A stretch of DNA of 64,000 nucleotides from the human T2T-CHM13v2.0 reference genome, Homo sapiens. Location: NCBI RefSeq assembly GCF_009914755.1, contig NC_060926.1; one strand, 5' to 3'. The first letter of the stretch is position 1. Each line of letters begins with the position of its first letter. Positions 32,572-33,959 of this stretch are shown in pieces. Position numbers and translations under genes: made by a program. The notes below the pieces were generated by a model. It did not search any database, was not told the DNA's origin, and saw only the letters and a list, made by a program, of their open reading frames with translations.

Positions 32572-33125
32572 TTTTTTTTTCTCCCCAAAGTCTTGCTTTG
32601 TTGTCCAGGCTGGAGTGCAGTGGCACAATCTTGGCTCACTGCAACCTCTGCCTCCTGGGTTCAAGCGATTCTCCTGCCTCAGCCTCCCGAGTAGTTGGAA
32701 CTACAGGTGTGTGCCACCACGCCTGGCTCTTTTTTTTTCTTTAATAGAGACAAGCTTTCACCGGGTTGGCCAGGCTGATCTCCGACTCCTGACCTCAAGT
32801 GATCCAGTTCCATCTGGCGTAACAAAGGTCATCCCAAATTCTACTTTTCTCCACGGCAAACCTTTAACAAGGTGGTCGAAATTAATTCAGATACCACATC
32901 CTTTTCTTTTTGGACCATGTAAGATCTCATCTGACTAGAATGTCTGTGAGCCAGAATATACTGTCTTTCTTGGAGTTGAGCTGAAAACAAACCATTCTAA
33001 GAGAATTTAAGCAGAATTTTGAGCAAAGAATTGTTGCAATATTCAGTTCTAATCCTAGTCATTTTGTTACTGCTTTGGCCTCCCAAAGTGCTGGGATTAC
33101 AGGTGTGAGCCACCGCATCCAGCCT
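32572..33125 (-). mobile_element. Alu interrupted by a 263-bp inverted insertion
   Basis: ...gacctcaagtgatc [insert 32805-33067] tactgctttggcctcccaaagtgctgggattaca... is collinear with the Alu consensus. Confidence 0.92.
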
Positions 33126-33959
33126 GAATTCACTTTTACATACCTTTTGTTCTAAGTTGGTATTCATGTTTAGAAAATACTACACTTACACATTGTTTAT
33201 TTCCTTCACTGGGAAAAAAACATAAGCATCTCAACTCGCATGGGCTATATAATATATATATCTCCTTTAAATGTGATGTTCAGTAATGACTTTAGAAGTA
33301 GTTTTTAGAGCGCTTATTTTGTCTAATATTCTCAGAGTATTTATAAAGCTGTAAAAATAAGATGTAAAAGCTTAATTTTATTTTTCCAAACTTTTTGAAT
33401 TGGACATCTAAAATACAAGCTTCATTGATGCTTCAGAGGACTTTATAAATAACCAGGAAGGTTGTACTTGGAAAGTCTGTACATTTCATCAGCACAGATT
33501 CATCATTTAGGTTTGGATTGCTTGGAAAGCCTTTTACTGTTTATATCTAAACATTCTTGTATATTGTGAAAATTACATAACAATCTAAGTTTGGAGATCT
33601 TTTGGTGGTTATTGGGAAAGAGTCTTGTCTTATGAGGAATCATTTTAGCTAAATGAAATGAAAACAAGTTTGCTTCCTGCTCTTCTTTGCCTGTTCACAA
33701 AATGACTAGGATTAGAACTGAATATTGCAACAATTCTTTCCTCAAAATTCTGCTTAAATTCACTTAAAATGGTTTGTTTTCAGCTCAACTCCAAGAAAGA
33801 CAGTATATTCTGGCTCACAGACGTTCTTGTCAGATGAAATCTTACAAGGTCCGAAAAGAAAATGATGTGGTATCTGAATTAATTTCGACCACCTTATTAA
33901 AGGTTTGTCCTGGAGAAAAGTAGAATTTGGGATGACCTTTGTAACCCCAGACGGAACTG
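32805..33959. repeat. 263-bp inverted repeat pair (32805-33067 and 33697-33959), 629-nt spacer
   Basis: Manual alignment to the reverse complement: 15 substitutions, no indels (~94%); ORFs 32615+ and 33760- share the peptide [15 protein letters not shown]. Confidence 0.97.

What the first reader, a model, noticed from the sequence alone, without database searches (positions are those of the whole stretch)
32805..33959. 263-bp non-Alu inverted duplication, one copy splitting an Alu, predicting a long intronic dsRNA hairpin
Seen: 32805-33067 is the reverse complement of 33697-33959. Both are 263 nt, with 15 substitutions, no indels and a 629-nt spacer. The left copy sits inside an antisense Alu whose halves rejoin collinearly (gtgatc|tactgctttggcctccc), with no TSD or poly(A). 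So the left copy is derived, post-dates the Alu and did not arise by L1 retrotransposition. The arm resembles no repeat family I recognise. Inference: a locally templated inverted insertion (replication template switch or Pol theta-type repair). In ABI2 pre-mRNA it would fold into a ~94% paired 263-bp stem, better paired than typical Alu-Alu duplexes, with four A-C mismatches and three G-U pairs. It is a candidate ADAR substrate, endo-siRNA/Microprocessor source, or splicing modulator for the cassette exon at 37195.
Basis: partly seen in the sequence, partly recalled or inferred. Interest (0 to 1): 0.85.

Follow-up and report, generated by a model that had tools for sequence, protein, structure and literature searches.

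The report
Inverted exon copy forming intronic hairpin
A 263-base piece of an ABI2 intron, including a rarely used exon, was copied backwards into a nearby Alu element millions of years ago, so the gene's unspliced RNA can fold into a long double-stranded hairpin; this is real and tidy, but it belongs to a known kind of mutation and has no demonstrated function.

Summary
Arms 32805-33067 and 33697-33959 are reverse complements: 263 nt, 15 mismatches, no indels, 629-nt spacer, 4 A:C and 3 G:U. The sequence occurs only at these two places in the whole T2T genome. The left arm splits an antisense Alu whose halves rejoin with 0 consensus columns skipped, and it has no TSD or poly(A). So it is a single local inverted duplication, not two transposon insertions.

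Including that exon shifts the frame and gives a stop 36 nt into the next exon, so it is probably a poison exon. The upstream copy is therefore an antisense mask of that exon.

The RNA folds into the full stem (MFE -549.7 kcal/mol). Duplex z = -58 against shuffles.

Arm divergence (K2P 0.059) suggests an origin of very roughly 15-45 Myr. The event fits a template switch (four-point type 1-4-3-2) or a double-strand-break patch.

Editing, small RNAs and any splicing effect remain untested. Verdict: a new member of a known kind, of modest interest.

The parts
32572..32804 (-). 3' part of the host Alu (antisense to ABI2; poly-T end at 32572-32582), cut at the insertion point
   Evidence: blastn to the neighbouring Alu covers 32589-32803; SRP/Alu-type Rfam hits on the minus strand at 32587-32727; local alignments to 8 reference Alus end at 32803-32806 in 6 of 8
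32805..33067 (-). Left arm: derived, reverse-complement copy of 33697-33959, inserted into the Alu without TSD or poly(A)
   Evidence: 263 nt, 15 mismatches, no indels; second of only two genomic places, 94% identity, minus strand
32862..32980 (-). Copy of the alternative exon inside the left arm; on the minus strand it keeps both splice-site motifs and an open 39-codon frame. On the ABI2 strand it is the antisense partner of the exon
   Evidence: splice motifs and translation of both copies; 85% identity over 39 aa, no stops
33068..33126 (-). 5' part of the host Alu, collinear with the 3' part
   Evidence: 0 majority columns skipped between the halves; the host has one 1-nt gap next to the junction
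33068..33696 (+). 629-nt spacer, the loop of the predicted hairpin: Alu 5' part plus unique AT-rich intron sequence
   Evidence: the 932-nt query 33126-34057 has no other genomic match apart from the left arm
33697..33959 (+). Right arm: source copy, continuous with unique intron sequence on both sides
33784..33902 (+). Annotated alternative ABI2 exon (119 nt) wholly inside the right arm. Its 3' splice site lies in the longest perfect duplex run (55 bp, 33768-33822 paired with 32942-32996). Inclusion shifts the frame
   Evidence: hub gene table (exons of other transcripts); frame, splice motifs; run lengths

Best explanation
This is one old, local, inverted duplication. A 263-bp stretch of the ABI2 intron was copied in reverse complement and placed 629 bp upstream, inside an older antisense Alu. 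The stretch holds a 119-nt alternative exon, 87 nt of upstream intron and 57 nt of downstream intron. The junctions are almost blunt: at most 1 Alu base lost, no TSD, no poly(A). The most likely mechanism is a switch-and-return template switch during replication or repair synthesis, with the geometry of four-point type 1-4-3-2. Both arms lie in one intron on the transcribed strand, so the pre-mRNA can fold into a 263-bp hairpin that is 94-95% paired, with a 629-nt loop. The upstream arm is transcribed first and is an exact antisense mask of the alternative exon, its polypyrimidine tract and both splice sites. Inferred consequences are promiscuous A-to-I editing of the stem in the nucleus and reduced use of the frame-shifting exon. 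The hairpin is removed with the intron, so it should not reach the cytoplasm. Most probably it is a neutral by-product that became fixed, not a selected device. Shown here: the anatomy, its uniqueness in the genome, the direction of copying, the fold and the frame consequence. Inferred: the mechanism of origin, the age, editing and exon masking.
For: Anatomy and significance.
Uniqueness: only two places in the 3.1-Gb assembly, by DNA with the 263-nt arm, by DNA with 932 nt at E up to 10, and by the 39-aa exon translation.
Direction of copying: the left arm interrupts an Alu whose halves are collinear, while the right arm runs on into unique sequence.
No L1 marks at the insert ends.
Left junction: imperfect 4-nt microhomology, ATCC in the Alu against ATTC in the source flank. 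This is why repeat finder extends the pair to 32802.
Fold: the full stem is present in both the MFE (-549.7 kcal/mol) and the centroid of the 1206-nt RNA. The arms' cofold energy is -413.9 kcal/mol against -113.5 +/- 5.2 for 40 dinucleotide-preserving shuffles, z = -58. The gain is -1.18 kcal/mol per nt, equal to the best Alu pair in the window (-1.21), whose arms lie 4767 nt apart.
Exon: 33784-33902 is open in the incoming frame but shifts it. The stop comes 36 nt into exon 37195-37281, upstream of two more junctions.
Age: K2P 0.059, with a Poisson 95% range of 3.2-9.4% raw divergence. The host Alu is 11.1% diverged at non-CpG sites from the window's Alu majority, so it is clearly older than the duplication.
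Precedent: template switches that create inverted repeats in one event, with type 1-4-3-2 making up 31% of human-chimp events (PMC5453318, passages), and that create intronic hairpins (PMC10710096, abstract).
Against: No other genome or assembly could be examined, so the ancestral empty site, the age and fixation are inferred from one haplotype. The template-switch events I saw described are short: the passages mention a 14-bp lower filter and examples of tens of bp, and I saw no upper size. A 263-bp copy from 629 bp away is large for that class. The right junction shows no microhomology, and 2-3 bases there (TA at 33068-33069) may be filler or simply diverged Alu; blunt joins fit end-joining of a free fragment just as well. 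8 of 15 differences are transversions (P = 0.09 against a one-third expectation). If some arose during error-prone synthesis at the event, the age is overestimated. The exon is annotated as used, so the stem does not fully block it. No RNA-level evidence of any kind was available.
Confidence: 0.6

Rival explanations
1. The product is the same but the origin differs: a double-strand break in the Alu was patched by end-joining with a free 263-bp fragment. The fragment could be a DNA piece or a cDNA of unspliced ABI2 pre-mRNA. This resembles class 2 templated sequence insertions.
For: There is no TSD and no poly(A), and the junctions are blunt or nearly so with at most 1 nt lost, a possible 2-nt filler and weak microhomology on one side only. 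These are the class 2 features listed in PMC5110952 (passages). The copied piece is transcribed, unspliced intron-exon-intron sequence, as expected for a nascent-RNA template.
Against: Class 2 insertions are described as coming from distant regions of the genome. Here the source is 629 bp away on the same molecule, which a random patch would hit only by extreme luck unless the template is tethered nascent RNA. The inverted orientation next to its source is what a fold-back or template switch produces directly.
Confidence: 0.25
2. The hairpin is a selected regulatory device. The upstream antisense copy acts like an exon-complementary sequence that hides the poison exon. ADARs or dsRNA helicases tune its inclusion and hence the ABI2 level.
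For: Both splice sites and the polypyrimidine tract of the frame-shifting exon lie inside the stem, with the 3' splice site in a 55-bp perfect run. Four A:C mismatches are present; by recall, A opposite C is a favoured ADAR context. The inverted repeat appears to have survived for tens of millions of years.
Against: The arms have diverged at a rate that looks neutral: 5.9% inside the exon part (7 of 119) against 5.6% outside it (8 of 144). 12 of the 15 differences break pairs and no compensating changes can be seen. There are no RNA data. Nothing on the locus is in print in the library searched (ABI2 occurs 0 times in the main text of the dsRNA catalogue paper). An inverted repeat with a 629-bp spacer needs no selection to persist (recalled general knowledge).
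Confidence: 0.1
3. Two independent insertions of the same rare transposable element in opposite orientations.
For: None beyond the bare fact of two copies. The genome search can miss very old, diverged repeats (caveat printed).
Against: There are only 2 places in 3.1 Gb and they lie 629 bp apart. The left copy has no TSD, terminal repeats or tail. The right copy contains a spliced host exon and runs on into unique sequence.
Confidence: 0.02
4. Assembly or sequencing artefact (a fold-back chimera).
For: Only one assembly was examined.
Against: The arms differ at 15 sites and are separated by 629 nt of unique sequence. Fold-back chimeras give near-identical arms that abut. Three of the 7 transition differences are a CpG in one arm against TpG/CpA in the other, as expected from long residence in a methylated germline.
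Confidence: 0.02

Closest known systems
Template-switch mutations, four-point model, type 1-4-3-2 (Loytynoja & Goldman 2017, PMC5453318; hairpin and miRNA birth, PMC8794818 and PMC10710096)
   Same: One event copies a nearby segment in reverse complement and returns to the original template, creating a new inverted repeat that can fold as an RNA hairpin. Such events are enriched or usable in introns, where the host gene transcribes them.
   Different: The examples seen in the passages are tens of bp with short loops. Here the copy is 263 bp, taken from 629 bp away, it adds sequence without replacing any, and it carries a whole exon. No Rfam miRNA or other RNA family matches the arms.
Class 2 templated sequence insertions (PMC5110952)
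   Same: An insertion of templated non-repeat sequence with no TSD and no poly(A), and with end-joining-like junctions.
   Different: Those insertions come from distant loci, often through RNA, and are polymorphic. This one comes from 629 bp away, and its 5.7% arm divergence suggests it is old; whether it is polymorphic could not be tested.
Inverted Alu pairs, the main ADAR substrates in human introns
   Same: A long, imperfect intramolecular duplex within one intron. Its length and stability per nt match the best Alu pair in the window.
   Different: It is not repeat-derived and is unique in the genome. It is better paired (94% against 73-91% for the 24 other listed pairs), its arms are much closer together, it is AT-rich (36-37% GC), and one arm is an exon.
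Predicted non-repetitive dsRNAs of the human 'dsRNAome' (dsRNAscan preprint, PMC11838218)
   Same: The scan's criteria (at least 25 bp, at least 70% paired, arms within 10 kb) are far exceeded, so such a scan should list this hairpin. The loop (629 nt) is close to the median for edited non-repetitive dsRNAs (509 nt).
   Different: It is longer and better paired than the edited non-repetitive median (144 bp, 87.5%). It falls just short of the 'long, highly paired' class (>300 bp and >96%). The locus is not mentioned in the main text, and the supplementary tables could not be opened.
Exon-complementary sequences of ADAR targets such as GRIA2 (recalled)
   Same: An intronic sequence pairs with an exon in the pre-mRNA.
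   Different: Classical ECS duplexes are short (the GRIA2 Q/R duplex is about 28-30 bp, as quoted), conserved and usually downstream. This one is a 263-bp duplicate lying upstream, with no evidence of conservation or site-specific editing.

Membership tests
Template-switch mutation (four-point model) | The new segment is the reverse complement of nearby sequence on the same molecule | tested here: met
   248 of 263 bases complementary, source 629 nt away
Template-switch mutation (four-point model) | A single switch-and-return explains the change, with an allowed order of switch points (1 before 4) | tested here: met
   Points 1 and 4 are adjacent in the Alu (0 columns skipped). Points 3 and 2 are 33697 and 33959. 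This is order 1-4-3-2, an observed type.
Template-switch mutation (four-point model) | Short range and short copied fragment | tested here: inconclusive
   263 bp copied from 629 bp away. The passages read give a 14-bp lower filter and examples of tens of bp; I did not see an upper bound (the follow-up query failed).
Template-switch mutation (four-point model) | Ancestral state without the change in an outgroup | not testable with these tools
   No primate genomes are held; only the window's own assembly could be searched.
Class 2 templated sequence insertion | No TSD, no poly(A), no cryptic poly(A) signal use | tested here: met
   Insert ends and flanks read; collinear Alu halves.
Class 2 templated sequence insertion | Template from a distant genomic region | tested here: not met
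   The only other copy is 629 nt away.
L1-mediated insertion (class 1 TSIP, processed copy) | TSD of at least 5 bp and a poly(A) tail | tested here: not met
   the copy also keeps intron sequence on both sides of the exon.
Dispersed transposable element | Multiple copies in the genome, with defined termini and a TSD | tested here: not met
   2 places only and no TSD. Caveats: very old copies could escape the search, and no Dfam library is on hand.
ADAR-edited intramolecular dsRNA | Long duplex on one transcript | tested here: met
   Full stem in the MFE and centroid. Watson-Crick runs of 55, 43, 32 and 32 bp. Both arms lie in one ABI2 intron (hub table).
ADAR-edited intramolecular dsRNA | Observed A-to-G RNA-DNA differences on both arms | not testable with these tools
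   No RNA-seq or REDIportal access. Abi2 is named once among differentially edited transcripts, without a site (PMC8946084, passage).
'Long, highly paired' putative MDA5 substrates (dsRNAscan definition) | >300 bp and >96% paired | tested here: not met
   263 bp, and 95.4% paired including G:U, against the definition.
miRNA or other described RNA family | Match to an Rfam covariance model | tested here: not met
   15 hits at E up to 1 in 32000-35000. 13 of 15 lie in Alus; the other two (mir-297 at 32103-32162, SNORD59 at 34370-34445) are weak and outside the arms. Only the weak SRP hit at 33007-33123 (21.7 bits; its Alu part is 33068-33123) runs back into the left arm; no hit lies within an arm.
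Poison (NMD-triggering) cassette exon | Inclusion gives a premature stop more than about 50 nt upstream of the last exon junction | tested here: met
   In silico only: 119 nt, stop 36 nt into exon 37195-37281, two junctions further downstream. Actual NMD is not testable here.

The most novel reading that the evidence does not exclude
The backward copy is an evolved, catarrhine-specific 'exon mask'. It is a 263-bp cis-antisense of a poison exon that normally hides the exon's splice sites in dsRNA. ADAR editing or a dsRNA helicase such as DHX9 would open it in particular tissues, switching ABI2 output through NMD. That would be a template-switch mutation giving birth in one step to a splicing regulator rather than to a miRNA.
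Probability: 0.07. Interest if true: 0.6.

Novelty: new member of a known kind. Interest (0 to 1): 0.33.

Why it matters
This is a clean natural example of a single mutational event creating a long, nearly perfect RNA duplex from unique sequence inside a human gene. It also happens to place an antisense copy directly upstream of an alternative, frame-shifting exon. If the stem were shown to control that exon, it would extend the idea that template switching creates functional hairpins from miRNAs to splicing control. If not, it is still a useful non-Alu positive control for editing, duplex-mapping and dsRNA-sensing studies. It would also serve as a datable marker of large templated insertions in primate genomes. 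As it stands, it is an ordinary member of a class that genome-wide dsRNA scans already enumerate.

Tried and rejected
(1) Dispersed repeat. Whole-genome searches with the arm, with 932 nt including spacer and flank at E up to 10, and with the 39-aa exon translation each found only the two local places. Rejected, with the printed caveat that very common or very old words can be missed.

(2) Known RNA family in the arms. Rfam at E up to 1 gave Alu-derived and chance hits only.

(3) Paralogous exon as an outgroup to polarise the 15 differences. One search found no ABI1/ABI3 or other match, so the differences cannot be polarised. Only the three CpG against TpG/CpA sites suggest that the left copy took those three changes.

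(4) Literature on this locus. Four searches found nothing specific: 'ABI2' with inverted repeat/intron/editing (2 plant papers), with ADAR/dsRNA, with A-to-I, and with cryptic/poison/pseudoexon (none of the 15 papers listed of 313 holding at least two of the terms held ABI2). The Matrin3/PTB paper concerns 'ABI2 exon 8' and has no link to this hairpin.

(6) A follow-up text query for the size range of template-switch events failed on a too-short term and was not repeated.

(7) Subfamily naming of the host Alu. No Dfam or consensus library is available. I measured only divergence from the majority of 32 window Alus. 'AluS-like' is my recollection of diagnostic motifs, not a tool result.

(8) Excess of transversions as a signature of error-prone synthesis: 8 of 15, P = 0.09. 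Not significant, kept only as a lead.

Full report
**Observation.** The repeat finder gives one inverted pair in 32000-35000, at 32802-33067 and 33697-33962 (266 nt, 94% complementary, 629 nt between the arms).

- Position by position, the 263-nt core 32805-33067 pairs with 33959-33697 with 15 mismatches and no indels. Identity collapses immediately outside.
That gives 94.3% Watson-Crick pairs and 95.4% with wobble.
- Chance is excluded: about 1e-120 per placement, against about 4e8 placements.

**Is it a repeat family?** The window's own assembly, 3.1 Gb in 24 contigs, could be searched.

- The right arm finds itself and the left arm only.
- A 932-nt query covering spacer, arm and flank, at E up to 10, finds the same two places.
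- The 39-residue translation of the embedded exon also finds only these two places.
- Rfam at E up to 1 gives 15 hits in 32000-35000, none lying within an arm. 13 of the 15 sit in Alus: SRP-like and Alu-derived miRNA families, all below their gathering scores. One of these, a weak SRP-like hit at 33007-33123, runs from the Alu's 5' part back over the last 61 bases of the left arm. The other two are weak hits outside the arms (mir-297 at 32103-32162, SNORD59 at 34370-34445).
- The search tool warns that very common or very old words can be missed, and there is no Dfam here. An ancient, decayed repeat under the arm cannot be formally excluded. It would not change the conclusion that the two copies are a local pair.

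**Direction and junctions.** The left arm sits in a minus-strand Alu, antisense to ABI2.

- Against 8 reference Alus of the window, the left flank aligns up to 32803-32806 in 6 of 8. Two local alignments run a little further by chance. The right flank aligns from 33071-33078.
- In an alignment of the host with 31 other window Alus, the two halves abut with 0 majority columns skipped. The host has a single 1-nt gap beside the junction.
- There is no direct repeat of the target and no A- or T-run at either end of the insert.
- At the left junction the Alu reads ATCC where the reverse-complemented source flank reads ATTC. This is an imperfect 4-nt microhomology.
- At the right junction there is none, and the first two bases after the insert (TA) are either diverged Alu or filler.
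- The right arm continues into unique sequence on both sides.
- The left copy is therefore derived, is younger than the Alu, and was not made by L1.

The hub table lists an exon of other ABI2 transcripts at 33784-33902, which lies wholly inside the right arm.

- It has a good polypyrimidine tract and AG, and an AAG|GTTTGT donor.
- The duplicated piece is thus 87 nt of intron, a 119-nt exon and 57 nt of intron. It is unspliced, so it was copied from DNA or from pre-mRNA.
- In the frame set by the annotated coding exons the exon is open for 39 codons, but 119 nt shifts the frame. The first stop comes 36 nt into exon 37195-37281, with two exon junctions still downstream. In silico this is a poison exon.
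- The left arm keeps both splice motifs and an open frame on the minus strand, where no gene is annotated.

**RNA fold.** The 1206-nt RNA 32780-33985 folds with the full stem in both the MFE (-549.7 kcal/mol) and the centroid.

- The two arms cofold at -413.9 kcal/mol, against -113.5 +/- 5.2 for 40 dinucleotide-preserving shuffles of one arm (z = -58).
- The gain over the arms folded alone is -310.9 kcal/mol, or -1.18 per nt. This equals the best Alu pair of the window (-1.21 per nt), whose arms are 4767 nt apart, and exceeds five other Alu pairs (-0.61 to -1.00).
- Of the 25 longest inverted pairs listed of 53 found in the window, this is the only one not made of Alus, and it is the best paired: 94% against 73-91%.
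- Uninterrupted Watson-Crick runs are 55, 43, 32, 32 and 21 bp.
- The 55-bp run (33768-33822 with 32942-32996) covers the exon's polypyrimidine tract, the AG and the first 39 exon bases. The donor lies in an 11-bp run.
- The antisense arm is transcribed first, so the exon would be paired as soon as it emerges.

**Age.** K2P distance is 0.059, and the Poisson 95% range on 15 differences is 3.2-9.4% raw divergence.

- By recalled primate neutral divergences (human-orangutan about 3%, human-macaque about 6%, human-marmoset about 11%), the point estimate is near the catarrhine ancestor. The range runs from great apes to early anthropoids.
- The host Alu is 11.1% diverged at non-CpG sites from the window's Alu majority, ranking 25th of 32. 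It is clearly older than the duplication.
- Differences are spread evenly: 7 of 119 in the exon part and 8 of 144 outside. This gives no sign of constraint.
- Three of the 7 transitions are CpG in the right arm against TpG/CpA in the left. That suggests ordinary germline decay of the left copy.
- 8 of 15 differences are transversions (P = 0.09). This is a weak hint that some errors date from the event itself.

**Mechanism of origin (inferred).**

- The geometry is that of a switch-and-return template switch. Synthesis leaves the Alu at point 1, copies 33959 to 33697 from the complementary strand (points 2 to 3), and returns at point 4 next to point 1. This is type 1-4-3-2, which creates an inverted repeat and made up 31% of high-confidence human-chimp events (PMC5453318, passages).
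- Such events are reported to create intronic hairpins, including new miRNA genes (PMC10710096, abstract; PMC8794818, listing only).
- This case is much larger than the examples I saw.
- The main rival is a break in the Alu patched by end-joining with a free fragment or a cDNA of nascent pre-mRNA. That resembles class 2 templated sequence insertions, which also lack TSD and poly(A) but come from distant loci (PMC5110952, passages).
- One genome cannot separate the two.

**Function (inferred, untested).**

- A 263-bp, 94-95% paired duplex in a nuclear pre-mRNA is the kind of substrate ADARs edit promiscuously.
- Its size and pairing exceed the medians of edited non-repetitive dsRNAs in a genome-wide scan (144 bp, 87.5% paired, loop 509 nt). 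It falls just short of that scan's 'long, highly paired' class of >300 bp and >96% (PMC11838218; passages and Table 1, section 10).
- That scan's criteria would certainly detect this hairpin.
- The most direct predicted effect is occlusion of the poison exon's splice sites, not an effect on the exon at 37195.
- The left arm is in no annotated exon, so the duplex should leave with the intron and not meet cytoplasmic sensors.
- I found no evidence for small-RNA production.
- Nothing in the arm divergence suggests selection. I rate a selected regulatory role at about 0.1.

**Verdict.** This is a real, well-defined, single-event inverted duplication of unique intron-exon sequence into an Alu, predicting a long intronic hairpin that masks an alternative exon. 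Both its mutational origin and its RNA class are known kinds, so it is a new member, unusually large and clean. Its interest is modest unless RNA data show exon control.

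Noticed in passing
window 34747-35046: This antisense Alu differs from the window's Alu majority at only 3 of 40 CpG-site bases, while 31 other Alus differ at 22-60% of them; its non-CpG divergence is 6.0%. 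It is either a young Alu subfamily member or sequence protected from germline methylation.
   Followed up: no
window 32862-32980 (minus strand): The antisense copy of the exon keeps the ttttcag acceptor, the AAG|gtttg donor and an open 39-codon frame (85% identical translation), although no minus-strand gene is annotated here. It could be spliced into any antisense transcript that crosses it.
   Followed up: partly
window 33784-33902 with 28472-28630 and 37195-37281: The annotated alternative exon is 119 nt and shifts the frame. The predicted tail ends 36 nt into the next exon, so transcripts carrying it are likely NMD targets.
   Followed up: partly
window 32587-32729, 34077-34360, 34758-34914: Sub-threshold Rfam hits to mir-1268, mir-3135, mir-1285 and metazoan SRP all lie inside Alus. 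They reflect Alu-derived miRNA families, not genes.
   Followed up: yes
ABI2 gene, exon not mapped to the window: 'ABI2 exon 8' is reported as a cassette activated by Matrin3 and repressed by PTB in minigenes (PMC4365034, passages). I did not work out which window exon this is.
   Followed up: no
window 31302-31459 and 32572-32729: The left half of the host Alu can itself pair (158 nt, 76%) with a sense Alu fragment 1.1 kb upstream (pair I16; gain -0.75 kcal/mol per nt). The hairpin therefore sits next to a second, weaker duplex in the same intron.
   Followed up: partly
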